Origin: Dictyostelium discoideum | Lineage: Eukaryota | Direction: 5' to 3' | NCBI GenBank assembly: GCA_000004695.1 | Contig: CM000152.2 | Location: 5,216,001 to 5,280,000 of the forward strand | DNA length: 64,000 nucleotides | Program-made: the position numbers and the translations under genes | Shown: positions 10,352 to 61,315 of the stretch, one piece after another | Position numbering within the stretch: the first letter of the stretch is position 1 | Layout of the letters: the number at the start of each line of letters is the position of its first letter | The notes under the pieces: generated by a model | What the model was told of the DNA's origin: nothing | The model's database searches: none | What the model saw: only the letters and a program-made list of their open reading frames with translations

Positions 10352-10530
10352 TTTTTAAATATTTTTGATTAACTTTTTTTTTTTTTTTTTTTAAATGTTT
10401 GTAAATAGATATTGTTATTTTTTATTTTTTTTATTTTTTATTTTTTTATTTTTATTTTTATTTTTTTTATATATTTTTTTTTAATAATAGTTATAAATAA
10501 ATAAATAAATATAATTGGATTAATAAATAA

Positions 10531-10570
<40 letters not shown>

Positions 10571-11596
10571 AAATATAGATATAGTAAAATTAAGTAAAAA
10601 TAAATAAATTGAAAAAATATTAAGTATAAATAAATAATTTAAATAACCCAATAATAATAAAAATAATAAAAATATTTAAATGATATAAATTTTTTGGGAT
10701 TAAAACATATATTGATATAGGTATATGTAAGAAAATAACCAATAAAAATAATATATAAATAAATTTTTAAATATTATTTTTTTATAAAAAAAAAAAAAAA
10801 AAAATAATTTGGAATTAAAAACACAAACTAACTGATTTTCATTGAGAGATTGGAGAAATTGTAATTGTTTTTTTGAATAAAATTTAAAGTAAGTCAGAAT
10901 AGTATAGTATCTCTTATATAAAAAAAATATATAATATAATATAATTTTAAATTGAATTGAATAAAACGAAATTTTAAAATAATAATATTTTTTTTTTTTT
11001 TAAAATTTAAAAATTACAAAAAATATAATTTAAATCAAATATTTAAGATATACACATATTATTATTTTTATTTTTATTTTCATTATTATTATTATTATTA
11101 TTTCAAAATTTTTTTTATTTATTTTATATGTTTATGAGGATTCTAAATTATTTTAAAATTTCGTTTATCACTAAATTTAAAATTGAAAAGATTTTGATTA
11201 CTTTTATTATTATTATAATTTTAATAAAATCTGTACAAACACTTTTTGCTTGTATGTATAAACACTTTAATTTTTTTTGTATAATTTTTTTAACTTTTCA
11301 ATTTTTGTGGTTTTGTAAATTGCATAATATAAATTACATATTATAAATATTTTTTTTATGATGTATTAAATTTAAATTATTAAAATTATTTTTTTTTAAA
11401 ATAAAAAAAAAAAAAATATATATGTTTAAATCAAAAAAGTTTCAAAATTTAATTTAAAAAATTAGAATATTAAATTTGAGTGTTTATTATTTTATTTTAA
11501 AAATGCTGGATAATCATTTTTTTTTATTAATATATCGTTAATTTATTATTTTCGAATTTATGTGAATGATATAATATAATTTATATATATATATAT

Positions 11597-11892
11597 TTAG
11601 AATTTCTTTTTATATAGAGCGACAATATTTCCATTTTTATCAACAATAATTGGTGCACCTGGCAAAGCAGGATCCCATGTGAATGCAACACAATTTGATG
11701 TTTGAGCTAGACTTGTACTTAAACCATCGTATACTGTTGTGGAAAAATTAATTGATTTTGAATTACCAGTCATTGACATTAATGATTCTATAAAAAAAAT
11801 AAAAATTTTATTATTTGGAAGATTAATATTAAAAAATAAAAAATAAAAATAAAAAAAAGAAATAAAAAAGAACACTTACTTAAAATTGACAT
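11597..11892 (-). CDS. small 2-exon gene, complement(11597..11787, 11880..11892); 13-nt first exon 'MSIL' plus phase-1 intron
   Basis: The exon-2 ORF ('SLMSMTGNSKSINFSTTVYDGLSTSLAQTSNCVAFTWDPALPGAPIIVDKNGNIVAL') has GC-enriched, coding-type codon usage. Upstream, 'ATGTCAATTTTAA' is followed by a perfect GTAAGT donor (11879..11874), and a 'ttttatag' acceptor ends at 11788. This gives MSILK-SLMSM... (68 aa). No homology recognised. Confidence 0.4.
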
Positions 11893-13902
11893 TTTTTTTA
11901 ATATTTGTTTTTTTTTTTAATTGAATGTTTTTTTAATTAAATGTAGATGTTCTTTTAATTTAATGATTTATTTATTTTTAAAAAAAAAGAGTTTAAATAT
12001 TTTTTTTTTTTATAATTATTTTTTTTTTTTAAAAAATACAAATTTAATAAATATTAAAAAAAATATTATTTTTGTGTAGATTATGTTTTGGGGAAAAACA
12101 ACCTTCAAAGAAATTTTGTTGATAAGGGTGTATTTATAATGTGATGTGTTTCTAATCTATCATTTTGACTATTTATTACAAATAATTATTGATTTTGTTT
12201 TTTAAAAAAATCTCATGGCATGTGATAATTATACAACCCTATCATAATTATTATTTTCAATTATTTTATTGTTATTATGTTTATTTAGATCCTCAATAAT
12301 TTTTTTTTTTAAAAACAAAAAAAAAAAAAAAAAAAAAAAAAAACCAACCCCAACTCACACACACAAACACTCAAACATTAAAATTGTAAAAATATAAATA
12401 CAAACGAAGTTGATCTTATTGCATATGTCATCTTGTACCACCTCACCCACCATAGAATATTTATTATTGAAAATCATTATTCATTTTAATATTTTTTTTT
12501 TTTTCAGTTAAATTAAATAATATTGTTTTACAAAACTATCACAATTTAACCCAAAACAATAAAAAAAATTACCCACAAATTTCAAAAAAAAATAATATTT
12601 GAGATATATAAAATTAATGATTCTTTTAACAACAACAACAATAACAATACCCCCCATAAATTTTTTTTTTTTTAAAAAAAAAAAAAAACAATTATTGGGA
12701 GCGTTAATAATTAATGATATTCTATTAATTTGCCTTGGTATATCTCAATTTAAAATAACAATAGTAAAAAACAAGTATTCAAAAATAAATATTTAAATAA
12801 ATAAATTAATAAATAAATAAATAAATATATAAATAAATGAAAATCATTTTGAACTACTTTTTAAAAGTTTTTTTTTTTTTTTTTTTTTAAACAGTATTGA
12901 TAAATAATTTCTGAAATTTAACCACATGAAATAAAAAACAATAATACACGTTTTTCTTTACTAATATGATGTTATATTTAAATTTTTATTTTTAATATCC
13001 ACATAGATCCATGACAAAGAGAACTGGTTGTTTTATTATCTATTTTCTGTTTTTTTATTTTTTTTTTTTATTTTTTTTTTACTAAATAACTAAAATGTCC
13101 AAAATGTAAACCATCTATGAGGGTTATAATAACTTTTGCACCTTTCTGAAATTTTATTGAATTTAAAATAATTTGTATTATCATTTTCAATAAAAATTAT
13201 ATTAAGATTTTGATTTAATTCTACATCTCTATTGATTTTCCAATTATTATTTTGTGTTGTGATTATTTCTTTTTGTTTTTTTTAAAATAATGAAAATAAT
13301 AATAATAATAATTATTAAAAAAGAATTAATATTTTATTAATTTATTTTTTTTATTTATTTATTTATTGTTTCTATTAATAGAATTAAAATTTAATAATCC
13401 AATTTTACAATCAATAAAAAGAACAAATTCTTTTAAAATTTAACTTACTTAATATAGACATGTAATTTTTTTTTTTTTTTTTTTTTAATTCTATTAGGTA
13501 AATTATTATTATTATTTTTTTTTTTTGCTATTTATAAATTATTGATTTATTTTAAAAAAAATAAAAATAAAAAAATAAAAAATAATATCAAAATAAAAAA
13601 AAAAAATTTTATAAATTATAAAATCATTTTTTAAAATGTAATAAATATTAATTGATAAATAATAAACATGAAAATATACATACCAATATAAATTAGGCAA
13701 TTTATTTAAGAGCTGTATTTTATGAAAGTATAGTTTTATTTTTTAAAAAAAAAAAATAGAAATAAAATTAAAAATATATAAATAAATATTTAAAAAGTAC
13801 TCTTGTAAATTAGTATATTTTATTCATTGATAAATGATTTGATAATTTTTTTAAAAAAAAAAATATTAATTAAAAATAAAAAATAATAATCTGCGTTTTC
13901 CA

Positions 13903-13944
<42 letters not shown>

Positions 13945-14176
13945 ATACAAATACATTAATTATTATTAATGAATTGAAATAAAAAAATAAAAAAATAAAT
14001 AAATAAAAAAGAATAAAAGAAAGAAATTCTCAAATAAAAAAAAAAACTATAAAATAAAAAATTTCAACCACATTTAATATATTAAAAATAATAAATAAAT
14101 AAATAAATATTTAAATAAATATTAATTAAATAAATTAATTAATTAATAAAATATATAAATAATAATACAAAATAAA

Positions 14177-14887
14177 ATGTCAAACAATAAAGAAAGTTTA
14201 GAAAGAATTATTAAAGGTATTCAAAATAATCAAATCTTAAAAGTATTTGAAGAATTTTATCATGACGAAATTGTTATGTATGAAAATGGAGATTCAAGCA
14301 ATCGTGTTGGTAAAGCTGCAAATCGTAAAGCTGAAGAATCCTTTGTTAATAATGCAACAATCAATGAAGCAAGGGTATTAAAAACCATAGTCGATGGTGA
14401 TAACACTGCCTATGAAATGTACATGGACTTCACATATGGTGGTCATCCGGTCAAGAAGACACAATGGGCTTTCCAACAATGGTCAAATGGTAAAATTATC
14501 AAAGAAGAGTTTGTAGATGTTAAAAAACCACCAACACCTGAACCATCAAAAAATGTTGAATCAAATCTTCAAGCAATTATCAAAGGTATTCAACAAGGTA
14601 AAATCTTGGAAGTCTTTGAAAAGTATTATCATAATGATGTTATCATGTATGAAAAAGGTGATTCAAGCAATCGTGTTGGTAAAGCTGCAAATCGTAAAGC
14701 TGAAGAGTCCTTTGTTAATAATGCAACAATCAATGAAGCAAAACTATTAAAAGTATTAGTCGATGGTGATAACACTGCATATGAAATGTATATGGACTTC
14801 ACATATGGTGGTCATCCGGTCAAGAAGACTCAATGGGCTGTTCAACAATGGTCAAATGATTTGGTTATTAAAGAAGAATTTTATTGA
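14177..14887 (+). CDS. protein made of two tandem SnoaL/NTF2-like (ketosteroid-isomerase-like) domains
   Basis: Two ~110-aa repeats, 'IIKGIQNNQILKVFEEFYHDEIVMYENGDSSNRVGKAANRKAEESFVNNATINEA..LK..VDGDNTAYEMYMDFTYGGHPVKKTQWAFQQWSNGKIIKEEF'. The pattern fits the SnoaL-like polyketide-cyclase/NTF2 fold. The two halves are also near-identical at nucleotide level (for example 'gattcaagcaatcgtgttggtaaagctgcaaatcgtaaagctgaaga' at about 14291 and again at about 14660). Confidence 0.6.
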   Translation: MSNNKESLERIIKGIQNNQILKVFEEFYHDEIVMYENGDSSNRVGKAANRKAEESFVNNATINEARVLKTIVDGDNTAYEMYMDFTYGGHPVKKTQWAFQQWSNGKIIKEEFVDVKKPPTPEPSKNVESNLQAIIKGIQQGKILEVFEKYYHNDVIMYEKGDSSNRVGKAANRKAEESFVNNATINEAKLLKVLVDGDNTAYEMYMDFTYGGHPVKKTQWAVQQWSNDLVIKEEFY

Positions 14888-42025: not shown

Positions 42026-45000
42026 TTAATTTTTAAAGATATAGTTTATATGATTTTGAATGATTTTTTCATTAACCATTCCTCCTTCATATGAGTTCAT
42101 TGATTGTAATAATTCTTTAGTTTTCTTTGAAACACCAAATCCATGACCCAAGTTATAAACACCATTGAGTCTATCTAATGAATGGAATGTTTTGAACTTT
42201 ATACATGATAGAATCTTTGATTGATTAATGATATTCTTCCATTGTTCATATTCAACCATTTCACATCCATATTGCTTTTCCAAGAATGAGAATGATGATT
42301 TAATTGATGAAACTTCACTATTTAAACTATAGATATTTAATTGATTTGAAGATGATTTATTCCAACATTTTTCATTTCCAATCATTTTAATTGTATTTAA
42401 ACCTATCCAACCAATTGGTGATGTTAATATGTTTTTATCAATATTTGGATACTTTTTAACTGCATAACATGATTGAATAATTAGTTGGAAGAAATCAGAA
42501 TCATGACCAATACCTGTTTCTTCATGTGAAAATATAATTGGTAGTCTAATTAACATTGATGGAATACCTCTTTTTGCTGCTTCTCTAAATAAATTTTCAA
42601 CAACTACTTTACTTTTCATATAACCACCTGGTAAATTATTAATATTTTCAATTGTTGGTATTACTGTTTCTTCATCAAATTCTTTACAATTTGGTGATTC
42701 AAAGAATACTGATATTGAACTAAATCCTACAATTGGTTTTTGATAATCACCAGTTGTTGAAAGTTTAATCAATTCAATTAAACCACCAATATTTACAACT
42801 TTACTCTCTTCATAATTTGATGCCAAATTAATATCGGCACCTGAATTAATTATTAAATTAATTTGGTTTGAAACAAAACCAAAATCTAATTTTGATAATC
42901 CTAATAATGGTGATGCTAAATTACCAACGATTACTTTAACTTTTGATAATTCAAATTCATTGTGAAAGTGATATAGTTTATGATGTTTCAAATTATTAAT
43001 TATTGCATTGATTGGATTTGGTTCTGATTTTTTATTTCTAATTAAACAATATACAACTGAACAGTTTGGTGATTTAATTAAGTTTGATAATAAATGAACA
43101 CCTAAAAATCCTGTTGCACCAGTTAAAAATACTTTTGAGTCATTTCTAAAATCAATTGGATTCATTTTAATTGCTTGAATTGATTCATCTAATTTCATTT
43201 CATTTCTCCAATATTCTAAACTTGGTGCTGAATCTTTTTTAATAATTTTTTTTGATTTTCCTTTAGTTTCATTTGAATCTAGTTTTTTGATTTGTTCTAA
43301 AATAATTTGAATATTTACTCCAATTGTATTATTTTGTAATTGTTGAAGTGTAATTACATTTGATTTATTTTCTTTATCAATGAAATTCTTTAATTGTACT
43401 GAAGTTAATGAATCTGCTCCATATTCACCTAAACGAATATCTGTGTTGATCTTTGATTGTTCAATTGATAAGAGTTCTGAAATTTTATTCAAAAATTTCA
43501 TTTGGATACTCTCTGAAATACTAATATTTTCACCACCATTATTATCATTATCTTTTTCCTTGATAGAATTTAAAATGAAATCTAATCTTTGGAAAGTTGA
43601 TGTTTCTGATGCGAATTTCTTAATTGAATCATAGTTAAATTTACTAACAATTAAATTTGAATATTTATTTGAATTTTGAAGTTGTAAATCTAATGAACCT
43701 AAAATTATATTTGTTGGAATTGGAATGAAACCTTGATCATCTAACATTTTTGAAACTGAATCATTTCTTGATACGAAACCTGATGATTTAATTGTTCCCC
43801 AATTTGTGCACGTTGATGGTAAACCAATTGATTTACGATATCTTGATAGTGAATCTAATACTAAATTTGCAGAAACATAAGTACATTGGTTGAATGAGCC
43901 AAATAATGATGCAATCGATGATGCCATAACAAATTGTTTTAATTTCCATGATTTCTCAATTGAGATTTCATGTAAATTAATTGCACCCATCGTTTTAGCA
44001 TTATGTGAAATATCTAATGATTCAATATCGATTTCTTCTACTTCTTTAGTTACTTGAGTGAACGCGTAATGGAATATTGAATCAATGTTATCAATATTTG
44101 GATTTTCTAATAAAATTTGATTAATTGATTTTCTCATTTCAATTGAATCACCAACATCTACGATCTTGAAATGGAACTTGGTGTTATTATCCTTTCTTGA
44201 TATTGTTTTATTGATTAATAGTTCTAACTCCCATTTTAATGATGATTTTGATAAAATGATAATGTTTTCAAATGATTCTGTTGGAGGTGAATATTTAATT
44301 AACCATTTTAAGATTTCTAAAATAATACCTGATTGACCTGTAATAATTATATTTTTACCAATTATATTTTTTGTATCAATTTTGAAATCATATTTTAATA
44401 TTGTATGATTCTTTTCATTGTTATCTGATTCAATGAGTTGATTTAATAATCCATCACTACCGATACTACCATTTGAACAACTATGATCTAATACAATTTT
44501 ACCAATATGTTTTCTTTGATTAATATATTCAATTGCTTCTTTGACATTTTCAATCTGGAATGTTGTTATCGGAATTAGTTTCACTTTGTTTTCATTTAAA
44601 GCATTTGAAATAGATTTTAATAATCTTGAAACTACTCTTTTATTAATATGCATAAATTCGATATTATGATAACTCTTGTTAAATTTGAAATTGTTGAAAT
44701 TTAAAAATTCATTGTTATTTAAATGGGTGATTGAGAGATCAATGATTTTACCTCTTTCTTTTAAACATAAAAAGTTTGAATGTGTAAATTCATTTGGTAA
44801 TGTATTTATAATTAAATCTACTCCGTTGAATTTACCAGTTGTACCATAAAGTTGATTTAATTTTGATTTGATTTCATTTACATAGTTTTTATTTCTTGAT
44901 GAATAAATTCCAGTTATGAATGATCCATAATTATCAATTAAATATTGTTCTTTATCTTTTGAACCTACTGTGACGAAAATTGGTGATTTATGACCTTTCC

Positions 45001-48000
45001 ATTTTAATATTTCTAATGTTGCTAAACCAATACCACCTGTTGCTGAGTGAATTAAAATGACTTCATCATCATCGATATTAAAATTACCAATGTTGAACAT
45101 ACCATGAAGACATGTTGAAAAAATGATTGGTAATGACGCTGCTTCAATATGACTAATATTATTTGGTTTATGTGAAACATAAAGTACATCAGTTATAACA
45201 TGAGATGCAGTTGCATCGTGTGATACACCAAAAACATTATCGCCTACTTTAAATTCACAATTTTTATTTTCATCAGATATTCTTGTGATAATACCTGAAA
45301 ATTCGAGACCAAGTGGATTTTTAGATATTGATACATTTTCATCAATAACAACTAAACCACGATAAATTAAATAATCTTTATAATTAATACCTGTTGCTAA
45401 AACTTTGACTTCAATTTCATTCTTTTTTAATTTCTTTGGTTTTGATGCTAATTTATATTCTAAATTTGTTGAATCTAAGAGTGTCATAAAATCATTATCT
45501 TCGAATGAATTTGAATTGAAGTTTGATTTTATATTCTTTTCATTCTTTAATATTTCATAATAAATTGAATTATTTCTAATTATATATTCTCTTTGAATAT
45601 GGTTATTTGAATTTTCAATCAATTGATTAATGATTTTATTTAATAATGATGATATCGATAATTGATTATCAAAATCGATTGAATATAGATTTAAACTTGG
45701 AAATTCATTAAAGTATCTTGATGCACCTATTATTGATGATGATAAATAGTTTTTGATTTGTGAATCAATAGTAATTAATACATGTTTACATGTTAAACTA
45801 TGTTTTAAAAGTTGTTGATTAATTTCAATATATTCCATTGTAATTTGTTTGAAATTATTCATTTCTAATTGTTCCATTGATTTAATAAAGTAAATTATTG
45901 AATCATTTGTTATTGAAGGTAATAGTTGATTAAATTCATTAATATTTGATATTGTTGTTTGTTTGCGATTGGTATGATTATTTGAAATTAATTTCTTAAA
46001 TTCATTTGTATATTTTGAATGTTTTTCACAATAAATGATAATATTATCATTTTTATTGTTTGGAACAACTGTTAATTCATTTGATAATATTGTAGATTTT
46101 TGTGATTGTATTACTTTGTTCGATTTCTGAATTTTGTTCTCATTAAAACCTACACCGATTAAATTATTGATATTAAATCGGATACCAATATCATCTTCAA
46201 TTATTAATAATAATAATCCATTTGAAGAAAGAATATTAAATATTGGTTTGATGATTGTTTCATCATTATTATTATTAATGATAATATCATAGTATGATGG
46301 TTTTAACTGGGTTATATCATTTTTAAAGATTAAACTTGAATCGTGTAAAGTTGGAAGTTTATCATTTGAATTATCAATAATTGTAAATTCTATATCGATT
46401 TCTTGTAAACTATTATCGAAAATTTGATTTAATGCTTCAATGATTTGTTTTGATAGTTCTGAATCTGAAAATGATTGTAAAATTCTAAAAACAATCTTTT
46501 CATTTATTATTGGTTTGATTGTTTGTTTAATAATTTCTGTAACTGTGTTGCTGCTGCCACTGCTGCTAGAAGTTTCATTATTATCAATGGATAAAATATT
46601 AACTAATGAATCTTTACATTGTAAATTATTTGTAAATAGTTCATTTGTAGGATTATTAAGTAATAATTCATCAATCAATGGAAGAGTTGAACGGAATGAT
46701 ATATGTTCTATTTCTAATAACTTTGTACCATCTTCTAATAAAACTAAAACTGATGATTTATAGCTATCTGCTTCCAAGGAGATGAATTTTGCTTGACAAT
46801 AGATATTCTTATATTTTAATTTGTCAGTTGGTATATTTTCAGAATAAACTTTTAAACCTTCAAGTCTTTCAAATACAAACTGGCTTGAATTTGTAATGAA
46901 TCCAGTGATGGCTTGTATACAGTTATCTAATAGCGCTATATTGAAAAATGATTTGTCAAATGTTTGATAAACAGGTTTACCATTGATATCAAAGTTTTCG
47001 TAGTTTATTTGTATTCTTGCAATTGTAAGATCATTGCCAAAGTGAAATTCTTCAATTCCTTGGAAAGTTCCTAAATGAGTGATACCTGATCTTAATTTAG
47101 AGTACTTATAAACTTCTTGTTTGGAAAGGGTAGTAAAATTACATTCTGATAGCAATTGATTTATATTATATTTAGATGAGTGATTATTATTATTATTATT
47201 ATTATTATCTTTTAATGATATAAGTTGAAAGTTACCAGTACATGTTTGAACCCATTGATTTGCTTTATTGTCTTTTATGTTGAATGTAACTCTATAATCA
47301 GTGTTACCTAATTGATAAACGTTGGTTTGTAAAATATGTTTGACATTTTCTTTTAAAACAAATGGTGCTAAAAATTCCAAGTTATTAATTACAATATCTT
47401 TATTTGGGTAAAGTTTCATAATATTATCAGCATATCCAATACCTGGGAAGTAATATTTTCCTTTTACAATATGGTCTTTTAAATATTTGAATGGATTTCT
47501 ATTTATATCGATTATTGATTCATATGATTTGTTATTTGATGAATAGTTAATCATTGATTTACCTAAGTTGTTGAAAACGTTTGGTCCATTTAATCTATAT
47601 TGTTCAAAGTTAATATCAACTTTCCAATAGTATTGTTCATCGAATTGATAGTTTGGTAAAATTATAGTGCTATTGTTTCTAATGGAATTGACATCATCAT
47701 CATTGTGATTGAATTGGCATTTAAAGTTTATATCATAACCTAAACAATAAATTTGTGAAATTGTTGAATGAATTTCATCTAAATCATTGGAGTTCTTTTT
47801 GTTTGTTGATGTTAATACTGAAACTGAATTAAAGTAACTTGATGATTTTGGTATCATTTGTTTTAAATAAAATGATAAACTTGGATGTGGTGAAACTTCA
47901 ATAAATATTAATTCATTACCAAGTTTATTATTTTCAATGTGTTGATATAAATTTGAAATAGTTTGAGAGAATCTGACAGGTTGTATTATATTTTCATAAA

Positions 48001-50453
48001 CATAACTTGAATTGAATGGAGTAGTTTCATGATTAAATAAATTAGTTGTAACTGTTGAAAATGTTGGAATTGTTGATTGTCTTGATGGTATTTCTAATGG
48101 TAAAATTTCATTTTTGGTTGAGTTTTGGCTACTTGTGTGGAATGATGATAATGAACCTAAAAATGCGCAAAAGATATTATTTTCTTTTAAGTCTAATGAT
48201 ATCTCTTTTAAAATATTTTCATTACCTGCAATTACAATTGATGTTGGTGAATTATAGCATGCAACTTCAATTGTTGGATATTTATTTGAATAAAGTTCAA
48301 TAAATTCTGAATGACTGATATTGACTGATAACATTTTACCACATCCATTTGTATTATTTTGAGAAATTGATCTGTGGTAAATTAATTTACAAACTGTTTG
48401 GAAATCTACCATACCTGAACAATATGATGTTGCTATTTCACCTAAACTATGACCAACAATGAATGATACATTGATACCCCAATGTTTGTATAGTTCAAAT
48501 AATGATATTTGTAACATTAATATCGATGGTTGAGCGATTATTGGTTGATGGATTGATATAATGTCATCATCTTTAATTGATCTTAATTTATCTAAAACTG
48601 AGTATCCATAGTATTTACTTAACTCTTTATTGAATTTGTCCATCGATGATCTGAATATTGGTTCACATTCATAAAGTTGTTGAGCCATTTTATTCCATTG
48701 TGAACCTTGACCTCCGAAAACAATAACAATCAATGGTTGATTTCTTTTAATTGTAATATTTGAGGATTTGTCATTGCTTGTTTTAAAGTACTTGTTTTTA
48801 GTTTTTAATTGATCCCAATTACTTGAAATTAAAACTGATCTTTGATATAGTTTCTTTGATTTTGAATAAATTTGATTCTTAACAAACTCTTTGAATGAAT
48901 TTGTAGAAAGATTATTATCATTTATTATTAAGTCTTCATAATTTTTTAATGATTTTACTGAATTGGCTGAAAATGGTATTAAAAATATTTGTTGTTGCGA
49001 TTCAATTGGATAACTAGGGTTATTACCATTTAGACTGATTGAGTGTTCAATAAATTGTGATAAAATTAAACAACAATTTGAGCCAGTTACACCAAAGTTA
49101 TTAATAACCATTGATACTGGTTTTTCATTAATATTTGTAAATGGTATTGCTTCTGTTACAACTTTAATATTCCAATCTTTAAAGTTAATCTTTGGATTTG
49201 GTTGATCAAAATTAACATTTGGTGCATAATGTTTATTTTTAAACATTAAACAACATTTGATTAATGATGCAACACCTAATATTAATATTAATATTTATAA
49301 AAAAAAGAGTTAAAAATTAATATATATATTTTTTTTTTATATGGTTTATAAATGGTTATAGCTTACCACTTGCAGCTTCACAATGACCAATATTAGATTT
49401 GAGTGATCCAATGAGTAATGGTTTAGATGGTGTTGATGTTGTTGATGAATTTAGAGCCATTGATACACCTTCTACTTCAATTGGATCACCTGTTGGTGTT
49501 CCTGTACCATGACATTCTACGAAACTAATATCTGATGCTTTCATATTTGCACTTTTCAATGCTAATTTGATATTATCAGATTGTGATTGTTTGGATGGTG
49601 AATAAAAGTTTGATTTATCATTTAAACCACCTCCATCGACATTTGAACTAAATGAATTAATTACACAATAAATATTATTACCATCTCTAATTGCGTCTGA
49701 TAATGGTTTTAAAATTACAATACCACAACTCTCTGCACGAATGTAACCATCTGCTTCTGAATCAAATGGTTTACATTTACCTTTTTTACTTAACATATTT
49801 AAAAATGAAAATGATTTTGAAACGTATGGATCAAGTAATAAACTGGCACCACCCACAATTGATAGATTTGAAGTACCATTTTGAATTGATTGAAAACCCA
49901 TTGTAATTGAATTCAATGATGAAGAACATGCTGTATCAATTGTCATTGATGGACCTCTGATATCATATGAAAATGATAATCTATTTGAAATGGTATGAAG
50001 AACATTTGATGCGAAATAATTTTCAGATGTTTCATTAAAGTCTCTATTTGTTGTTGAATAATCTAATGTTGAGCAACCAATGAAACAAGATGTATTTGAA
50101 CCTCTAATATCGATTGGATCGATGAATGCATCTTCTAATGCTTCCCATGTACACTTTAATAGTAATCTTGTTTGTGGATCCATTAGGGGTACTTCTGATG
50201 GATTGATTGCGAAATGAACTGGATCGAAATCACTCCATTCTTTTAATGGTAATAATCCACCAAATTTATTATTAACTTCACCGAGTAAATTGATATTGTC
50301 ACTCCATCTTTCTGATGTTTCAACAATACCACTGAATCCATTCTTTAAATTATTCCATAAATGTGAAACACTACCATTATTAATTGATTCTTTACCTTGT
50401 GGAATTCTAAATCCAATACCTACAATGGCAATTTCTTTATTTCCAAATTCCAT
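42026..50453 (-). CDS. type I iterative polyketide synthase, copy A (2778 aa); complement(42026..49275, 49367..50453); KS-AT-DH-linker-ER-KR-ACP-R
   Basis: KS: Cys '[13 protein letters not shown]' (about 49930) plus '[12 protein letters not shown]' and 'GHCEAASG'. A 91-nt intron (donor GTAAGC at 49366..49361, acceptor 'ttag' at 49279..49276, phase 1) lies just before '[19 protein letters not shown]'. AT: 'GQGSQW' and 'GHSLGE' (about 48440). DH: 'HxxxGxxxxP' as '[15 protein letters not shown]' (about 47460). ER (MDR): '[15 protein letters not shown]' (about 45035). KR: '[17 protein letters not shown]' (about 44335). ACP: '[14 protein letters not shown]' (about 43410). C-terminal reductase: '[18 protein letters not shown]' (about 43115) with about 390 aa beyond it. 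There is no obvious SAM motif in the about 600-aa DH-ER spacer. Confidence 0.9.
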
Positions 50454-52802: not shown

Positions 52803-55800
52803 TTAATTTTTAAAAATATAGTTTATATGATTTTGAATCATTTTTTCATTGACCATTCCTCCTTCATATGAGTTCATTGATTGTAATAATTCTTTAGTTT
52901 TCTTTGAAACTCCAAATCCATGACCCAAGTTATAAATGTTATATAAATCATCTAATGAATGGAATGTTTTTAATTTTATACATGATAGAATCTTTGATTG
53001 ATTAATGATATTCTTCCATTGTTCATATTCAACCATTTCACATCCATATTGCTTTTCCAAGAATGAGAATGAAGGGTTCATTGCTGAAACTTCACTATTT
53101 AAACTATAGATATTTAATTGATTTGAAGATGATTTATTCCAACATTTTTCATTTCCAATCATTTTAATTGTATTTAAACCTATCCAACCAATTGGTGATG
53201 TTAATATGTTTTTATCAATTTTTGGATACTTTTTAACTGCATAACATGATTGAATGATTAACTGCAAGAAATCAGAATCATGACCAATACCTGTTTCTTC
53301 ATGTGAGAATATAATTGGTGGTCTAATTAACATTGATGGAATACCTCTTTTTGCTGCTTCTCTAAATAAATTTTCAACAACTACTTTACTTTTCATATAA
53401 CCACCTGGTAAATTATTAATATTTTCAATTGTTGGTATTACTGTTTCTTCATCAAATTCTTTACAATTTGGTGCATTAAAGAATACTGATATTGAACTAA
53501 ATCCTACGATTGGTTTTTGATAATCACCAGTTGTTGAAAGTTTAATTAATTCAATGAAACCACCAATATTTACAACTTTACTCTCTTCATAATTTGATGC
53601 CAAATTAATATCGGCACCTGAATTAATTATTAAATTGATTTGATTTGAAATATAATCAAAATCTAATTTTGATAATCCTAATAATGGTGATGCTAAATTA
53701 CCAACTATAACTTTAACTTTTGATAATTCAAATTCATTGTGAAGTTGATATAGTTTATGATGTTTCAAATTATTAATTATTGCATTGATTGGATTTGATT
53801 CTGATTTTTTATTTCTAATTAAACAATATACAACTGAACAATTTGGTGATTTAATTAAGTTTGATAATAAATGAACACCTAAAAATCCTGTTGCGCCTGT
53901 TAAAAATACTTTTGAATCATTTCTAAAATCAATTGGATTCATTTTAATTGCTTGAATTGATTCATCTAATTTCATTTCATTTCTCCAATATTCTAAAGTT
54001 GGTGCTGAATCTTTTTTAATAATATATTTTGATTTTCCTTTAGTTTCATTTGAATCTAGTTTTTTGATTTGTTCTAAAATAATTTGAATATTTACTCCAA
54101 TTGTATTATTTTGTAATTGTTGAAGTGTAATTACATTTGATTTATTTTCTTTATCAATGAAATTCTTTAGTTGTACTGAAGTTAATGAATCTGCTCCATA
54201 ATCACTTAAACGAATATCTGTGTTGATCTTTGATTGTTCAATTGATAAGAGTTCTGAAATTTTATATAAAAATTTCATTTGGATACTTTCTGATATACTA
54301 ATATTTTCACCACCATTACTGTCATTATCTTTTTCTTTGATTGAATTTAAAATGAAATCTAATTTTTGGAAAGTTGATGTTTCTGATGCGAATTTCTTAA
54401 TTGAATCATAGTTAAATTTACTAACAATTAAATTTGAGTATTTATTTGAATTTTGAAGTTGTAAATCTAATGAACCTAAAATTATATTTGTTGGAATTGG
54501 AATGAAACCTTGATCATCTAACATTTTTGAAACTGAATCATTTCTTGATACGAAACCTGATGATTTAATTGTTCCCCAATTTGTGCATGTTGATGGTAAA
54601 CCAATTGATTTACGATATCTTGATAATGAATCTAATACTAAATTTGCAGAAACATAACTACATTGGTTGAATGAGCCAAATAATGATGCAATCGATGATG
54701 CCATAACAAATTGTTTTAATTTCCATGATTTCTCAATTGAAATTTCATGTAAATTAATTGCACCCATCGTTTTAGCATTATGTGAAATATTTAATGATTC
54801 AATATCGATTTCTTCTACTTCTTTAGTTACTTGAGTGAATGCATAATGGAATATTGAATCAATGTTATCAATGGTTGGATTTTCTAATAAAATTTGATTA
54901 ATTGATTTTCTCATTTCAATTGGATCACCAACATCCACACTATTGAAATGGAATTTAGTGTTATTATCCTTTCTTGATATTGTTTTATTGATTAATAGTT
55001 CTAACTCCCATTTTAATGATGATTTTGATAAAATGATAATGTTTTCAAGTGATCCTGTTGGAGGTTTTGAAGGTGAATATTTAATTAGCCATTTTAAGAT
55101 TTCTAAAATAATACCTGATTGACCTGTAATAATTATATTTTTACCAATTGTATTTATTGTATCGATATTAAAATCATATTTTAATATTGTGTGATTCTTT
55201 TCATTGTTATCTGATTCAATGAGTTGATTTAATAATCCATCACTACCGATACTACCATTTGAACAACTATGATCTAATACAATTTTACCAATATGTTTTC
55301 TTTGATTAATATATTCAATTGCTTCTTTGACATCTTCAATCTGGAATGTTGTTATTGGAATTAGTTTTAATTTATTTTCATTTAAAGCATTTGAAATGGA
55401 TTTTAATAATCTTGAAACTACTTTTTTATTAATATGCATAAATTCAATATTATGATAACTCTTGTTGAATTTGAAATTGTTGAAATTTAAAAATTCATTA
55501 TTATTTAAATGGGTGATTGAGAGATCAATGATTTTACCTCTTTCTTTTAAACATAAAAAGTTTGAATGTGTAAATTCATTTGGTAATGTATTTATAATTA
55601 AATCTACTCCGTTGAATTTACCAGTTGTACCATAAAGTTGATTTAATTTTGATTTGATTTCATTGACATAGTTTTTATTTCTTGATGAGTAAATTCCAGT
55701 TATGAATGATCCATAATTATCAATTAAATATTGTTCTTTATCTTTTGAACCTACTGTGACGAAAACTGGTGATTTATGACCTTTCCATTTTAGTATTTCC

Positions 55801-58800
55801 AATGCTGCTAAACCAATACCACCTGTTGCTGAGTGAATTAAAATTACTTCATCATCATCGATATTAAAATTACCAATGTTGAACATACCATGAAGACATG
55901 TTGAAAAAATGATTGGTAATGATGCTGCTTCAATATGACTAATATTATTCGGTTTATGTGAAATCCAAAATGCATCAGTTATAACATGAGATGCAGTTGA
56001 ATCGTGTGATACACCAAATACATTATCGCCTACTTTAAATTCACAATTTTGATTTTCATCAGATATTCTTGTGATAATACCTGAAAATTCGAGACCAAGT
56101 GGATTTTTAGATATTGATATATTTTCATCAATAATGACTAAACCACGATAAATTAAATAATCTTTATAATTAATACCTGTTGCTAAAACTTTGACTTCAA
56201 TTTCATTCTTTTTTAATTTCTTTGGTTTTGATGCTAATTTATATTCTAAATTTGTTGAATCTAAGAGTGTCATAAAATCATTATCTTCGAATGAATTTGA
56301 ATTGAAGTTTGATTTTATATTCTTTTCATTCTTTAATATTTCATAATAAATTGAATTATTTCTAATTATATATTCTCTTTGAATATGGTTATTTGAATTT
56401 TCAATCAATTGATTAATGATTTTATTTAATAATGATGATACTGATAATTGATTATCAAAATCGATTGAATATAGATTTAAACTTGGAAATTCATTAAAGT
56501 ATCTTGCTGTACCTATTATTGATGATGATAAATAGTTTTTGATTTGTGAATCAATAGTAATTAATACATGTTTACATGTTAAACTATGTTTTAAAAGTTG
56601 TTGATTAATTTCAATATATTCCATTGTAATTTGTTTGAAATTATTCATTTCTAATTGTTCCATTGATTTAATAAAGTAAATTATTGAATCATTTGTTATT
56701 GAAGGTAATAGTTGATTAAATTCATTACTATTCGATATTATTTGCTTGGAATTGGTATGATTATTTGAAATTAATTTCATAAATTCATTTGTATATTTTG
56801 AATGTTTTTCACAATAAATGATAATATTATCATTTTTATTGTTTGGAACAACTGTTAATTCATTTGATAATATTGTTGATTTTTGTGATTGTATTACTTT
56901 ATTTGAATTTTGAATTTTGTTTTCATTAAAACCTACATTGATTAAATTATTGATATTAAATTGAATACCAATATCATCTCCAACTATTAATAATAGTCCA
57001 TTTGAAGAAAGAATATTAAATATTGATTTGATGATTGTTTCATCATCACCATCATTATTATTATTAATGATAATATCATAGTATGATGGTTTTAACTGGG
57101 TTATATCATTTTTAAAGATTAAACTTGAATCGTGTAAAGTTGGAAGTTTATCATTTGAATTATCAATGATTGTAAATTCAATATCGATTTCTTGTAAACT
57201 ATTATCATCGAAAATTTGATTTAATGCTCCAATGATTTGTTTTGATAATTCTAAATCTGAAAATGATTGTAAAATTCTAAAAATAATTTTTTCATTAATA
57301 ATTGGTTTGATTGTTTGTTTAATAATTTCTGTAACTGTATTGCTGCTGCTGCTGCTAAAAGTTTGATTATTATCAATGGATAAAATATTAACTAATGAAT
57401 CTTTACATTGTAAGTTATTTGTAAATAATTCAGTTGTAGGATTATTAATTAATAATTCATCAATCAATGGAAGAGTTGAATGGAATGATAAATGTTCTAT
57501 TTCCAATAACTTTGTACCATCTTCTAATAAAACTAAAACTGATGATATATAGCTATCTGATTCCAAGGAGATGAATTTTGATTGACAATAGATATTTTTA
57601 TATTTTAATTTGTCAGTTGGTATATTTTCAGAATAAACTTTTAAACCTTCAAGTCTTTCAAATACAAACTGGCTTGAATTTGTAATGAATCCAATAATGG
57701 CTTGTGCGCAATTATCTAATAGCGCTGTATTGAAAAATGATTTGTCAAATGTTTGATAAACAGGTTTACCATTGATATCAAAGTTTTCGTAGTTTATTTG
57801 TATTCTTGCAATTGTAAGATCATTGCCAAAGTGAAATTCTTCAATTCCTTGGAAAGTTCCTAAATGAGTGATACCTGATCTTAATTTAATGTACTTGTAT
57901 GCATCTTGTTTTGAAAGAGTTGTAAAATAACATTCTGATAGTAATTGATTTATATCATATTTTGATGAGTTATGATCTTTTAATGATATAAGTTGAAAGT
58001 TACCAGTACATGTTTGAACCCATTGATTTGTTTTATTATCTTTTATGTTGAATGTGACTCTATAATCAGTGTTACCTAATTGATAAACGTTGGTTTGTAA
58101 AGTATGTTTGACATTTTCTTTTAAAACAAATGGTGCTAAAAATTCCAAGTTATTAATTACAATATCTTGATTTGGGTAAAGTTTCATAATATTATCAGCA
58201 TATCCAATACCTGGGAAGTAATATTTTCCTTTTACAATATGGTCTTTTAAATATTTGAATGGATTTCTATTTATATCGATTATTGATTCATATGATTTGT
58301 TATTTGATGAATAGTTAATCATTGATTTACCTAAGTTGTTGAAAACGTTTGGTCCATTTAATCTATATTGTTCAAAGTTAATATCAACTTTCCAATAGTG
58401 TTGTTCGTCGAATTGATAGTTTGGTAAACTGATATTGACCTTGCTGTTTCTAATGGAACTGACATCATCATTGTGATTGAATTGACACTTGAAGTTTACA
58501 TCATAACCTAAACAATAAATTTGTGAAATTGTTGAATGAACTTCATCTAAATCATTGGAGTTTTTTTTGTTTGTTGATGTTAATACTGAAACTGAATTAA
58601 AGTAACTTGATGATTTTGGTATCATTTGTTTTAAATAAAATGATAAACTTGGATGTGGTGAAACTTCAATAAATATTAATTCATTACCAAGTTTATTATT
58701 TTCAATGTGTTGATATAAATTTGAAATAGTTTGAGAGAATCTGACAGGTTGTATTATATTTTCATAAACATAACTTGAATTGAATGGAGTAGTTTCATGA

Positions 58801-61315
58801 TTAAATAAATTGGTTGTAACTGTTGAAAATGTTGGAATTGTTGATTGTCTTGATGGTATATCTAATGGTAAAATTTCATTTTTAGTTGAATGTTGACTAC
58901 TTGTGTGGAATGATGATAATGAACCTAAAAATGCACAAAAGATATTATTTTCTTTTAAATCTAATGATATCTCTTTTAAAATATTTTCATTACCTGCAAT
59001 TACAATTGATGTTGGTGAATTATAACATGCAACTTCAATTGTTGGATATTTATTTGAATAAAGTTCAATAAATTCTGAATGACTGATATTGACTGATAAC
59101 ATTTTACCACAACCGTTTGTATTATTTTGAGAAATTGATCTGTGGTAAATTAATTTGCAAACTGTTTGGAAATCTACCATACCTGAACAATATGATGTTG
59201 CGATTTCACCTAAACTATGACCAACAATGAATGATACATTGATACCCCAATGTTTGTATAGTTCAAATAATGATATTTGTAACATTAATATTGATGGTTG
59301 AGCGATTATTGGTTGATGTATTGATATAATATCATCATCTTTAATTGATCTTAATTTATCTAAAACTGAGTATCCATAGTATTTACTTAACTCTTTATTG
59401 AATTTATCCATCGATGATCGGAATATTGGTTCACATTCATAAAGTTGTTGAGCCATTTTATTCCATTGTGAACCTTGACCTCCGAAAACAATAACAACTA
59501 ATGGTTGATTTCTTTTAATAGTAATATTTGAGGATTTGTCATTATTTGTTTTAAAGTACTTGTTTTTAGTTTTTAATTGATCCCAATTAATTGAAATTAA
59601 AACTGATCTTTGATATAATTTCTTTGATTTTGAGTAAATTTGATTCTTAACAAACTCTTTGAATGAATTTGTAGAAAGATTATTATCATTTATTATTAAG
59701 TCTTCATAATTTTTTAATGATTTTACTGAATTGGCTGAAAATGGTATTAAAAATCTTTGTTGTTGTTGTGATTCAATTGGATAACTAGGGTTATTACCAT
59801 TTTGATTGATTGTTCAATAAACTGTGATAAAACTAAACAACAATTTGAACCAGTTACACCAAAGTTATTAATAACCATTGATACTGGTTTTTCATTAATA
59901 TTTGTAAATGGTATTGCTTCTGTTACAACTTTAATATTCCAATCTTTAAAGTTAATCTTTGGATTTGGTTGATCAAAATTAACATTTGGTGCATAATGTT
60001 TATTTTTAAACATTAAACAACATTTGATTAATGATCCAACACCTGAAATTAATATTTATAAAATAAAAAAAAAGTTAGAATTAATATTTTTGGTTTTTTT
60101 TATTTTATTTTATAAATGGTTATAACTTACCACTTGCAGCTTCACTATGACCAATATTAGATTTGAGTGATCCAATGAGTAATGGTTTAGATGGTGTTGA
60201 TGTTTTTGATGAATTTAGAGCCATTGATATGCCTTCTACTTCAATTGGGTCACCTGTTGGTGTTCCTGTACCATGACATTCTACGAAACTAATATCTGAT
60301 GCTTTCATATTTGCACTTTTCAATGCTAATTTGATATTATCAGATTGTGATTGTTTGGATGGTGAATAAAAGTTTGATTTATCATTTAAACCACCTCCAT
60401 CGACATTTGAACTAAATGAATTAATTACACAATAAATATTATTACCATCTCTAATTGCGTCTGATAATGGTTTTAAAATTACAATACCACAACTCTCTGC
60501 ACGAATGTAACCATCTGCTTCTGAATCAAATGGTTTACATTTACCTTTTTTACTTAGCATATTTAAAAATGAAAATGATTTTGAAATGTATGGATCTATA
60601 TAAATAAATGTATATAATAATTAAAAAAAAAAGAAAAAGAAAATTGAAGAATAAAAATAAAATAATAAATGTTTAAATTCTGAATTAACATACCAAGTAA
60701 TAAACTGACACCACCCACAATTGATAGATTTGAAGTACCATTTTGAATTGATTGAAAACCCATTGCAATTGAATTCAATGATGAAGAACATGCTGTATCA
60801 ATTGTCATTGATGGACCTCTGATATCATATGAAAATGATAATCTATTTGAAATGGTATGAAGAACATTTGATGCGAAATAATTTTCAGATGTTTCATTAA
60901 AGTCTCTATTTGTTGTTGAATAATCTAATGTTGAGCAACCAATGAAACAAGATGTATTTGAACCTCTAATATCGATTGGATCGATGAATGCATCTTCTAA
61001 TGCTTCCCATGTACACTTTAATAGTAATCTTGTTTGTGGATCCATTAGGGGTACTTCTGATGGATTGATTGCGAAATGAACTGGATCGAAATCACTCCAT
61101 TCTTTTAATGGTAATAATCCACCAAATTTATTATTAACTTCACCGAGTAAATTGATATTGTCACTCCATCTTTCTGATGTTTCAACAATACCACTGAATC
61201 CATTCTTTAAATTATTCCATAAATGTGAAACACTACCATTATTAATTGATTCTTTACCTTGTGGAATTCTAAATCCAATACCTACAATCGCAATTTCTTT
61301 ATTTTTAAATTCCAT
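52803..61315 (-). pseudogene. type I PKS copy B: near-identical paralog of copy A, 3 exons with a frameshifting 4-nt deletion in exon 3. Exons about 60694..61315 and 60130..60595; exon 3 is the two fragments 59812..60042 and 52803..59811, broken by the frameshift at 59811/59812
   Basis: Line-by-line, the sequence matches copy A with 0-4 differences per 60 nt (offset about 10.8 kb). Same domain motifs (KS 'GHSEAASG', AT 'GHSLGE', R '[10 protein letters not shown]'). Relative to A it has (i) an extra 98-nt intron 60596..60693 (GTATGT...tatatag) splitting 'LLL|D|PY' in the KS domain; (ii) the shared KS-C-terminal intron 60043..60129; (iii) a 4-nt deletion at about 59811/59812 (A 'GAACACTCAATCAGTCTAAATGG' vs B 'GAACAATCAATCAAAATGG', minus strand). 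This puts '[10 protein letters not shown]' into a frame that stops after '[18 protein letters not shown]'. The remaining 2217-codon ORF (52803..59456 and open up to about 59811) is in another frame. No plausible intron rescues it. The pseudogene call assumes the sequence is correct. Confidence 0.7.
60596..60693 (-). other. copy-B-specific phase-1 intron within the KS domain (absent from copy A)
   Basis: B has 98 extra AT-rich nt that begin GTATGTTAATTC and end TTTATATAG exactly between codons that are contiguous in A ('TTACTTG|ATCCATAC'). Confidence 0.75.

What the first reader, a model, noticed from the sequence alone, without database searches (positions are those of the whole stretch)
42026..50453. 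PKS architecture ends in an NAD(P)-dependent thioester-reductase (R) domain after the ACP
After the phosphopantetheine site 'GADSL' (about 43410) comes a Rossmann '[14 protein letters not shown]' motif and about 390 more residues ('...[26 protein letters not shown]...'). This is the layout of terminal reductase (NAD_binding_4 / SDR-e) release domains. Chain release would be reductive (aldehyde or alcohol product), not by thioesterase or a Steely-type chalcone-synthase fusion. The about 600-aa DH-ER spacer lacks a recognisable SAM-binding motif, so it may be a structural psi-MT/linker. The product class is unknown.
Basis: partly seen in the sequence, partly recalled or inferred. Interest (0 to 1): 0.6.

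Follow-up and report, generated by a model that had tools for sequence, protein, structure and literature searches.

The report
Dictyostelium pks19 with terminal thioester reductase
This is the already annotated Dictyostelium discoideum polyketide synthase gene pks19, and its reductase release domain after the carrier domain is real and looks functional, but a published survey already reports such domains in about half of this organism's polyketide synthases.

Summary
Window 42026-50453 (minus strand) holds a two-exon gene with a 91-nt intron at 49276-49366. Its 2778-aa product matches D. discoideum AX4 XP_640415.1 / DDB_G0282027 / UniProt Q54T36, 'Probable polyketide synthase 19', residue for residue.

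Pfam gives the order KS-AT-DH-(gap)-ER-KR-ACP-NAD_binding_4. The C-terminal domain is a thioester reductase:
- PF07993 matches at E=1e-44.
- The closest solved relative is the myxalamid MxaA R domain (E=3.6e-32; TM 0.81-0.86 to the predicted structure).
- The NADPH loop TGATGFLG, Arg2442 and the Ser2548/Tyr2581/Lys2585 triad are intact and near-invariant in dictyostelid relatives.

The DH-ER spacer is about 420 aa, not 600. It is a truncated methyltransferase remnant plus the KR structural subdomain. The SAM glycine loop has been replaced and the lid deleted.

All other catalytic motifs are intact. The likely product is therefore an unbranched, reduced acyl chain released as an aldehyde or alcohol. 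That is inferred, not shown.

None of this is new. A 2025 paper states that 19 of the 40 D. discoideum PKSs carry probable thioester reductases and marks those that lack the MT. The product of pks19 remains unknown. Interest is low.

The parts
49367..50453 (-). pks19 exon 1 (codons 1-362 plus the first base of codon 363); start codon at 50453-50451
   Evidence: ORF list and splice reconstruction; the spliced product is an exact match to XP_640415.1
49276..49366 (-). 91-nt intron (GTAAGC...ATTAG) inside the KS domain
   Evidence: removing it restores '[18 protein letters not shown]' and gives the database protein exactly
42026..49275 (-). pks19 exon 2, through the stop codon (42026-42028)
49205..50438 (-). 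Ketosynthase (residues 6-386; Cys176 in DTACSSS, HGTGT 315-319, NIGH 354-357); spans the intron
   Evidence: PF00109 E=1.3e-62 and PF02801 E=4.6e-31; motifs
47846..48721 (-). Acyltransferase (residues 548-839; GHSLG 637-641, Arg 25 residues after the Ser, SFH motif)
   Evidence: PF00698 E=3.1e-39; motifs and reading of the sequence
46688..47533 (-). Dehydratase (residues about 944-1225; [10 protein letters not shown] 964-973, DNCIQ 1146-1150)
   Evidence: PF21089 and PF14765 hits, weak and below gathering score; catalytic motifs present
46100..46558 (-). Degenerate, truncated methyltransferase core (psi-MT, residues about 1269-1421). Motif I 'ILEFGGGTxSL' of MT-bearing paralogues is replaced by '[10 protein letters not shown]'; the N-terminal lid and the post-motif-III segment are deleted.
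   Evidence: No Pfam hit at E<=10; alignment with paralogues; AF2 model with a seven-strand alpha/beta core; Foldseek hits to class I methyltransferases and to Pks16 9nju; lowest conservation of all domains
45521..46045 (-). KR structural subdomain (psi-KR, residues about 1440-1614)
   Evidence: AF2 model; Foldseek to Pks16 9nju (TMq 0.67 over the whole spacer), insect FAS modifying region and DEBS module 1
44489..45424 (-). Enoylreductase (residues 1647-1958; NADPH motif HSATGGIG 1772-1779)
   Evidence: PF08240 and PF13602; motif
43787..44350 (-). Ketoreductase catalytic subdomain (residues 2005-2192; TGQSG 2008-2012, YVSAN 2162-2166)
   Evidence: PF08659 E=2.5e-26; motifs
43262..43522 (-). 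Acyl carrier protein (residues 2281-2367; phosphopantetheine Ser2318 in GADSL, window 43420-43406)
   Evidence: PF23297 E=8e-30; motif
42029..43138 (-). Terminal thioester reductase (R/TR) domain, residues about 2409-2778. It has a Rossmann subdomain (TGATGFLG 2414-2421, Arg2442, Ser2548, Tyr2581, Lys2585) and a C-terminal substrate subdomain.
   Evidence: PF07993 E=1e-44; TIGR01746 E=5.6e-47; MxaA R E=3.6e-32 with aligned 'GGYaqSKwvaE'; AF2 pLDDT 89.9; TM 0.81-0.86 to 4w4t/4u7w and 8v1x; residues conserved in A2

Best explanation
The region is the D. discoideum gene pks19. It encodes an iterative, highly reducing, FAS-like type I polyketide synthase with the domain order KS-AT-DH-psiMT-psiKR-ER-KR-ACP-R.

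Proposed mechanism. The AT loads malonyl units onto the ACP (Ser2318). The KS extends the chain, and KR, DH and ER reduce each beta-carbon. The methyltransferase is a truncated remnant that cannot bind SAM, so the chain is unbranched. The finished acyl-S-ACP thioester enters the C-terminal R domain. There NADPH, held by TGATGFLG and Arg2442, delivers hydride, and Tyr2581/Lys2585/Ser2548 act as the SDR triad. The chain leaves as an aldehyde, or as the primary alcohol after a second hydride.

What is shown: gene identity, domain order, the fold of the R domain and spacer, and the presence and conservation of catalytic residues.

What is inferred: that each domain is active, that release is reductive, whether reduction is two- or four-electron, and the chain length and product.
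For: - Exact identity to XP_640415.1 / Q54T36 'Probable polyketide synthase 19'.
- Pfam domain order, with PF07993 at residues 2413-2644, E=1e-44.
- R domain: TIGR01746 E=5.6e-47; best solved relative MxaA R, E=3.6e-32, aligned over residues 40-340 of the 408-aa fragment including the S/T, Y and K positions.
- AF2 model pLDDT 89.9, pTM 0.91. TM 0.81-0.86 to MxaA R and 0.81/0.85 to the S. coelicolor PKS thioreductase, followed by the CAR, M. tuberculosis and archaeal NRPS R domains.
- T2414, G2415, G2418, G2421, R2442, S2548, Y2581 and K2585 are invariant or >=90% conserved in 26 dictyostelid PKS-R proteins.
- The R N-subdomain is 84-88% identical in the D. citrinum and D. firmibasis orthologues. 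That matches ER and DH and is well above the psi-MT (67-79%).
- KS, AT, DH, ER, KR and ACP catalytic motifs are all present.
- psi-MT status.
- Literature: 19 of the 40 DdPKSs have a post-ACP domain 'most likely monomeric thioester reductases' (PMC12828403). R domains are defined by GxxGxxG plus an S-Y-K triad, and the myxalamid R performs a four-electron reduction (PMC2835699).
Against: - No experimental data exist for pks19. No paper in the searched library mentions it, and only three D. discoideum pks genes have characterised functions (PMC12625978).
- The TIGR01746 score (160.8 bits) is below NCBIfam's curated cutoff of 213.35.
- About half of the family, including the fatty acid synthase Pks16, has no release domain at all. 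A trans-acting release route must therefore exist in this organism and could also serve pks19.
- The DH Pfam hits are below gathering score.
- The tandem paralogue next door is frameshifted, so this small array may be partly decaying.
- Sequence cannot tell aldehyde from alcohol release.
Confidence: 0.75

Rival explanations
1. The R domain is structurally intact but is not the physiological release step. The chain is released by a trans-acting hydrolase or acyltransferase, as must happen for the R-less Dictyostelium PKSs. The R domain would then be idle, or serve only as a docking or structural element.
For: 68 of the best 120 dictyostelid homologues lack PF07993 yet presumably release products. 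Pks16 and Pks5 have no release domain (PMC12828403; PMC9618038). AlphaFold 3 could not place the offloading domains relative to the synthase core (PMC12828403).
Against: The cofactor loop and catalytic triad are fully conserved across dictyostelid groups. Conservation of the domain equals that of the catalytic domains and is well above the degenerate psi-MT. A useless domain would be expected to decay as the MT has.
Confidence: 0.12
2. The domain is a redox-incompetent R* type that releases the chain by Dieckmann or Claisen-type cyclisation, as in fungal PKS-NRPS tetramate synthetases. The product would then be a cyclised compound rather than a reduced one.
For: R-like domains with the same fold do this in some fungal megasynthases (established knowledge; a PKS-NRPS, psoA, appears among the weaker PDB hits, E about 7e-7).
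Against: The catalytic Tyr, Lys and Ser are all present, and so are the NADPH loop and the Arg that binds the 2'-phosphate. There is no NRPS module to supply an aminoacyl nucleophile. A fully reducing KR/DH/ER set leaves no beta-dicarbonyl for Dieckmann chemistry. The closest solved relatives are redox-active R domains.
Confidence: 0.03
3. pks19 is a silent or decaying member of a recently duplicated tandem array and makes no product under any condition. The intact motifs would simply reflect the youth of the duplication.
For: The adjacent copy is 96-97% identical in DNA and carries a 4-nt frameshifting deletion. Copy number varies between strains: five >90%-identical copies lie on one contig of D. 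cf. discoideum. No publication mentions pks19.
Against: The 2778-codon reading frame is open with no lesion. Full-length orthologues at 83-84% identity exist in D. citrinum and D. firmibasis with the same architecture. This indicates purifying selection since the species diverged.
Confidence: 0.08

Closest known systems
Dictyostelium discoideum iterative type I PKS family (40 DdPKSs; Pks16 cryo-EM structure 9NJU), subgroup with a C-terminal thioester reductase
   Same: It is a member: an exact match to pks19. It has the same KS-AT-DH-(MT)-KRs-ER-KRc-ACP core. The spacer superposes on Pks16 (TMq 0.67). 52 of the best 120 dictyostelid homologues also carry PF07993. PMC12828403 reports 19 DdPKSs with probable TR domains and marks those without an MT or MT lid.
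   Different: Nothing distinguishes it from the published description of the family. Within the family it belongs to the minority clade whose MT has lost both the lid and the SAM loop. Its product is unknown.
MxaA terminal R domain of the myxalamid PKS-NRPS (Stigmatella aurantiaca; PDB 4U7W/4W4T)
   Same: It is the best solved relative by sequence (E=3.6e-32) and by fold (TM 0.81-0.86). It has the same TGATGFLG loop, the same 'GGYxxSKxxxE' motif, and the same two-subdomain layout directly after a carrier domain.
   Different: MxaA follows an NRPS PCP in a bacterial modular assembly line and reduces a peptidyl/polyketide thioester to an alcohol by four electrons (PMC2835699). Here the domain follows the ACP of a eukaryotic iterative FAS-like PKS. 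Foldseek reports only 23-24% identity over the whole domain. The number of reductions here is unknown.
CpkC-type PKS thioreductase of Streptomyces coelicolor (PDB 8V1X) and carboxylic acid reductase R domains (5MSO, 5MSP and related entries)
   Same: Same fold and motifs (E=8.9e-22 and 4e-12 by sequence; TM 0.81/0.85 and about 0.75). All act on phosphopantetheine-bound acyl thioesters.
   Different: They are more distant in sequence than MxaA. They sit in a bacterial modular PKS or in a stand-alone A-PCP-R enzyme rather than in an iterative fully reducing synthase.
Fatty acyl-CoA reductases (FAR, 'male sterility' proteins; e.g. rice DPW 7EOZ)
   Same: They share Pfam PF07993 and the Rossmann/SDR chemistry, and would yield a similar product class (fatty aldehyde or alcohol).
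   Different: The match is much weaker (E=2.6e-5; TMq 0.65-0.69). FARs act on free acyl-CoA or acyl-ACP as separate enzymes. No FAR C-terminal 'Sterile' domain was reported by Pfam.

Membership tests
Terminal thioester reductase (R/TR) domain of PKS/NRPS (PF07993 NAD_binding_4; TIGR01746; extended SDR) | Profile match above the family threshold | tested here: met
   PF07993: 153.1 bits against a 20.1-bit gathering score, E=1e-44
Terminal thioester reductase (R/TR) domain of PKS/NRPS (PF07993 NAD_binding_4; TIGR01746; extended SDR) | NCBIfam TIGR01746 'thioester reductase domain' above its curated cutoff | tested here: not met
   TIGR01746 is the best NCBIfam hit at E=5.6e-47, but 160.8 bits is below the 213.35-bit cutoff. 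The model and its cutoff are tuned for bacterial and archaeal annotation. The match covers profile positions 1-300 of 371.
Terminal thioester reductase (R/TR) domain of PKS/NRPS (PF07993 NAD_binding_4; TIGR01746; extended SDR) | Located at the C-terminus, immediately after a carrier protein domain | tested here: met
   ACP is residues 2281-2367 and R is residues 2409-2778 (the protein end), joined by a linker of about 40 aa
Terminal thioester reductase (R/TR) domain of PKS/NRPS (PF07993 NAD_binding_4; TIGR01746; extended SDR) | Glycine-rich NAD(P)H loop TGxxGxxG | tested here: met
   TGATGFLG at 2414-2421. T, G, G, G are >=90% conserved in 26 relatives, and CLxR Arg2442 is conserved.
Terminal thioester reductase (R/TR) domain of PKS/NRPS (PF07993 NAD_binding_4; TIGR01746; extended SDR) | Ser/Thr-Tyr-Lys catalytic triad (Y-x3-K) | tested here: met
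   S2548, Y2581 and K2585. They align with 'vSTvSV' and 'GGYaqSK' of MxaA and are near-invariant in A2. The definition of the triad is taken from PMC2835699.
Terminal thioester reductase (R/TR) domain of PKS/NRPS (PF07993 NAD_binding_4; TIGR01746; extended SDR) | Two-subdomain R-domain fold (Rossmann plus C-terminal substrate subdomain) | tested here: met
   AF2 pLDDT 89.9. The first 25 Foldseek hits are all thioester or carboxylate reductase R domains, with TM up to 0.86 over about 405 columns.
Terminal thioester reductase (R/TR) domain of PKS/NRPS (PF07993 NAD_binding_4; TIGR01746; extended SDR) | NADPH-dependent reduction of the carrier-bound thioester | not testable with these tools
   Needs an enzyme assay or metabolite analysis
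Dictyostelid iterative highly reducing type I PKS (DdPKS family) | KS-AT-DH-(MT)-ER-KR-ACP order with catalytic motifs, and a sequence belonging to the family | tested here: met
   Exact match to pks19; Pfam order; motifs; all 120 best homologues are dictyostelid PKSs
PKS C-methyltransferase domain (PF08242 / class I SAM-MT) | Profile match and glycine-rich SAM-binding motif I | tested here: not met
   No Pfam family at E<=10 on residues 1211-1650. 'ILEFGGGTxSL' of MT-bearing paralogues reads '[10 protein letters not shown]' here. About 130 aa of lid and about 35 aa after motif III are missing.
PKS C-methyltransferase domain (PF08242 / class I SAM-MT) | Class I methyltransferase alpha/beta fold | tested here: inconclusive
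   The model of residues 1269-1421 has an alternating beta/alpha core. Foldseek finds CheR, MnmC, PrmA and spermidine synthase at E=1e-4 to 1e-2 over 160-220 columns, with TMq only 0.22-0.27 because the query also contains the psi-KR. This fits a remnant, not an active MT.
Redox-incompetent R* (Dieckmann cyclase) domains | Loss of the catalytic Tyr and/or a degenerate NADPH motif | tested here: not met
   Tyr2581 and an intact TGATGFLG are present
Steely hybrid FAS-type III PKS | C-terminal chalcone synthase domain | tested here: not met
   No chalcone/stilbene synthase family among the Pfam hits. The C-terminus is fully accounted for by the R domain.
Thioesterase-terminated FAS/PKS | C-terminal alpha/beta-hydrolase TE domain | tested here: not met
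   No thioesterase family among the Pfam hits

The most novel reading that the evidence does not exclude
The pks19-type enzymes have all reducing domains intact, a dead methyltransferase and a competent R domain. They could be dedicated de novo fatty-aldehyde or fatty-alcohol synthases. That would give Dictyostelium a route to long-chain alcohols, for ether lipids, wax esters or a signalling lipid, that bypasses free fatty acids and the peroxisomal FAR. A lipid paper has already guessed that the residual ether lipid in a FAR-deficient mutant comes from 'one of the many polyketide synthases' (PMC7375469).
Probability: 0.2. Interest if true: 0.4.

Novelty: already known. Interest (0 to 1): 0.12.

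Why it matters
As a domain annotation it adds nothing. The gene model is in GenBank and UniProt, and the presence of thioester reductases on 19 of the 40 D. discoideum PKSs has been published, together with which ones lack the MT.

What remains open is chemical: what pks19 makes. Only three of the 40 synthases have known products. The anatomy worked out here narrows the prediction to an unmethylated, reduced chain ending in an aldehyde or alcohol. It also names the point mutants that would test this (Y2581F, K2585A).

Tried and rejected
- Pfam on the spacer alone at E<=10 gave no family at all, so the psi-MT call had to rest on alignment and fold.
- Literature searches for 'pks19' and for DDB_G0282027, DDB_G0282029 and Q54T36 found nothing.
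- The supplements of PMC12828403 held as text do not mention Pks19, Pks20 or thioester reductase. I could therefore not confirm from text that Fig. 4A labels Pks19 specifically.
- The two key family papers (Zucko 2007, PMID 17660200; Ghosh 2008, PMID 18252726) are not held.
- A regex tally of MT motif I across homologues was too strict: it missed 'FGGGTAS'. I discarded it in favour of the precomputed Pfam lists.
- I looked for tailoring genes next to pks19. The flanks encode housekeeping proteins: Sec23/24, Sec1, PIG-U, aminopeptidase P, class II aldolase and a ubiquitin-like protein. There is no biosynthetic cluster to constrain the product.
- I did not run a database-wide search with the R domain alone. 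It would not have changed the verdict and is costly.
- Aldehyde versus alcohol release cannot be decided from sequence. I considered using the closest relative (MxaA, four-electron) as a predictor but rejected that as unreliable at about 24-36% identity.


Full report
**What the window is.** The window is about 22% G+C throughout. Reading the junction shows a GT..AG intron of 91 nt at 49276-49366. Removing it restores the ketosynthase motif '[18 protein letters not shown]' and gives one 2778-codon frame. An exact-sequence look-up finds this protein as XP_640415.1 / EAL66435.1, DDB_G0282027. This is UniProt Q54T36, 'Probable polyketide synthase 19' of Dictyostelium discoideum AX4. The gene model is therefore already in the public record.

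**Checking the observation.**
- GADSL, the phosphopantetheine site, is residues 2315-2319, window 43420-43406.
- TGATGFLG is residues 2414-2421, window 43123-43100.
- GGYMKSK is residues 2579-2585, window 42628-42608.

Pfam on the whole protein gives these domains:

| Domain | Residues | Pfam evidence |
|---|---|---|
| KS | 6-386 | PF00109 E=1.3e-62; PF02801 E=4.6e-31 |
| AT | 548-839 | PF00698 E=3.1e-39 |
| DH | about 944-1225 | weak, below gathering score |
| ER | 1647-1958 | PF08240, PF13602 |
| KR | 2005-2192 | PF08659 E=2.5e-26 |
| ACP | 2281-2367 | PF23297 E=8e-30 |
| NAD_binding_4 | 2413-2644 | PF07993 E=1e-44, 153 bits against a 20-bit cutoff |

No thioesterase, chalcone synthase or methyltransferase family appears. 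The DH-ER gap is about 420 residues rather than 600. About 365 residues rather than 390 follow the Rossmann motif.

**The R domain.**
- The best NCBIfam model is TIGR01746, 'thioester reductase domain' (E=5.6e-47). Its 160.8 bits fall short of that model's strict 213-bit cutoff.
- Among solved structures, the best sequence match is the terminal R domain of the myxalamid synthetase MxaA (4U7W, E=3.6e-32). The alignment runs over 300 residues and places 'FSSISV' on 'VSTVSV' and '[11 protein letters not shown]' on 'GGYAQSKWVAE'.
- Next come a Streptomyces PKS thioreductase (8V1X, 8.9e-22), NRPS R domains and carboxylic acid reductases. A plant fatty acyl-CoA reductase is far behind (2.6e-5).
- An AlphaFold2 model of residues 2371-2778, built on an alignment with 25 dictyostelid relatives, is confident (pLDDT 89.9, pTM 0.91). 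It superposes over its whole length on MxaA R (TM 0.81-0.86) and on 8V1X (0.81/0.85). The next hits are all thioester or carboxylate reductases.
- In the 26-sequence alignment, the cofactor loop (T2414, G2415, G2418, G2421), the CLxR arginine (R2442) and the triad (S2548, Y2581, K2585) are invariant or at least 90% conserved.
- These are the features that define active R domains: GxxGxxG plus S-Y-K (PMC2835699).

**The spacer.** Residues 1226-1646 give no Pfam match even at E<=10. I aligned them with paralogues that do carry PF08242 methyltransferase domains. Three differences stand out:
- pks19 lacks about 130 residues of N-terminal helical 'lid'.
- It lacks about 35 residues after motif III.
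- It reads '[10 protein letters not shown]' where the active paralogues have the SAM-binding loop 'ILEFGGGTxSL'.

The AlphaFold2 model (pLDDT 79.9) still shows an alternating beta/alpha core at 1269-1421, followed by a second alpha/beta unit at 1440-1614. Foldseek places the whole piece on the MT0/KRs region of the Pks16 cryo-EM structure (9NJU, E=5e-20, TMq 0.67). It places the first half on class I methyltransferases (CheR, MnmC, PrmA, spermidine synthase; E 1e-4 to 1e-2) and the second half on the DEBS and insect FAS modifying regions. The remnant is also the least conserved part of the protein: 67-79% identity to the D. firmibasis and D. citrinum orthologues, against 84-92% for KS, AT, ER, KR and the R Rossmann subdomain.

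**How it most likely works.** KS (Cys in DTACSSS, HGTGT, NIGH), AT (GHSLG with Arg at +25), DH (HxxxGxxxxP, DxxxQ), ER (HSATGGIG), KR (TGQSG, YxSAN) and ACP (GADSL) all keep their catalytic signatures. The enzyme should therefore behave like a fatty-acid-synthase-type iterative PKS and build an unbranched, largely reduced chain. The thioester would then be reduced by the R domain with NADPH, which releases an aldehyde, or an alcohol after a second hydride. This is an inference from domain identity and conservation. Chain length, degree of reduction in each cycle, and two- versus four-electron release cannot be read from the sequence.

I considered three rivals:
- The R domain is not the release step and a trans-acting enzyme releases the chain. 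This is plausible because more than half of the family has no release domain. It is disfavoured by the strong conservation of the catalytic residues.
- The domain is a non-redox Dieckmann-type R*. This is disfavoured by the intact Tyr and NADPH loop, the lack of an NRPS module and the fully reducing chemistry.
- The gene is silent. This is disfavoured by the intact frame and by full-length orthologues at 83-84% identity in sister species.

**Comparison with what is known.** All 120 best database homologues are dictyostelid PKSs. By my count of the precomputed Pfam lists, 52 of them carry PF07993. These include proteins from D. purpureum, Acytostelium, Heterostelium, Cavenderia and Polysphondylium, and roughly half of the 52 show no methyltransferase family. 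The ACP-R ending is thus old and common in social amoebae.

The 2025 Pks16 cryo-EM paper says so explicitly. Of the 40 DdPKSs, 21 have an offloading enzyme after the ACP. [quoted passage not shown] Its Figure 4A marks which synthases have a TR and which lack the MT or its lid (PMC12828403). I could not read the figure. The text and the held supplements do not name Pks19. Even so, the architecture found here is exactly what that survey describes.

No paper in the library mentions pks19 or its locus tag. A 2025 global study states that only three D. discoideum pks genes have characterised functions (PMC12625978). A lipid paper speculates that residual ether lipid in a FAR-deficient mutant comes from one of the PKSs (PMC7375469). 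A FAS-like synthase with a terminal reductase, such as pks19, is the kind of enzyme that could supply it.

**Surroundings.** Genes flanking pks19 are housekeeping genes: Sec23/24, Sec1, PIG-U, aminopeptidase P, class II aldolase and a ubiquitin-like protein. No cluster of tailoring enzymes helps predict the product.

Directly upstream, at 52803-61315 on the minus strand, lies a second copy. It is 96-97% identical in DNA across the coding region, with the same R domain motifs. It differs in two ways:
- It has a 98-nt GT..AG intron (60596-60693) that pks19 lacks precisely.
- It has a 4-nt deletion near 59803 that shifts the frame and leads to a stop shortly after the KS.

The same DNA is present in a second D. 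discoideum assembly, where an automatic annotation nevertheless reports a 2762-aa product. That length is reproduced only by skipping 38 nt. The one 38-nt skip I found with GT..AG ends is 'GTTTAT...CCCTAG', and it is homologous to coding sequence in pks19. I read this as an annotation workaround for a pseudogene, but it is untested.

**Verdict.** It concerns an annotated gene of a model organism, and both its terminal reductase and its degenerate methyltransferase fit a published family-wide description. The only open question is the product.

Noticed in passing
window 52803-61315, minus strand: This is a second, tandem copy of the PKS, 96-97% identical in DNA to pks19, with the same ACP-R ending. 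A 4-nt deletion near 59803 ('GTCT' missing relative to pks19) shifts the frame, and stops follow shortly after the KS domain. A second D. discoideum assembly has the identical DNA but is annotated with a 2762-aa product. That length requires skipping an implausibly short 38-nt GT..AG segment that is homologous to pks19 coding sequence. It is probably a pseudogene (pks20, from memory).
   Followed up: partly
window 60596-60693 (neighbour) versus 49833/49834 (pks19): The neighbour copy has a 98-nt GT..AG intron in the KS domain, between 'LLL' and 'DPY'. pks19 lacks it precisely, although the flanking exons are about 98-99% identical. This is an intron presence/absence difference between very recent paralogues.
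   Followed up: partly
Proteins P0002-P0006 (D. cf. discoideum, locus tags ACTFIZ_006578 to 006586, one 2.1-Mb contig): Five paralogues more than 90% identical to pks19 lie close together in another strain or species, against two copies (one broken) in this window. The tandem array varies in copy number.
   Followed up: no
window 14177-14887, plus strand: A 236-aa ORF matches SnoaL-like (NTF2-fold, 'polyketide cyclase') domains: PF12680 E=3.3e-10 and PF07366 E=3.9e-7. It lies about 28 kb from pks19 with housekeeping genes in between, so a functional link is doubtful.
   Followed up: no
window 10001-14000: An extremely A+T-rich stretch (13-14% G+C, against about 22% for the window) with no ORF of 150 aa or more. 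It is presumably intergenic or repetitive DNA.
   Followed up: no
window 46440-46763, plus strand: A 107-aa ORF lies antisense to the pks19 psi-MT region. It is most likely a chance ORF inside the coding sequence.
   Followed up: no
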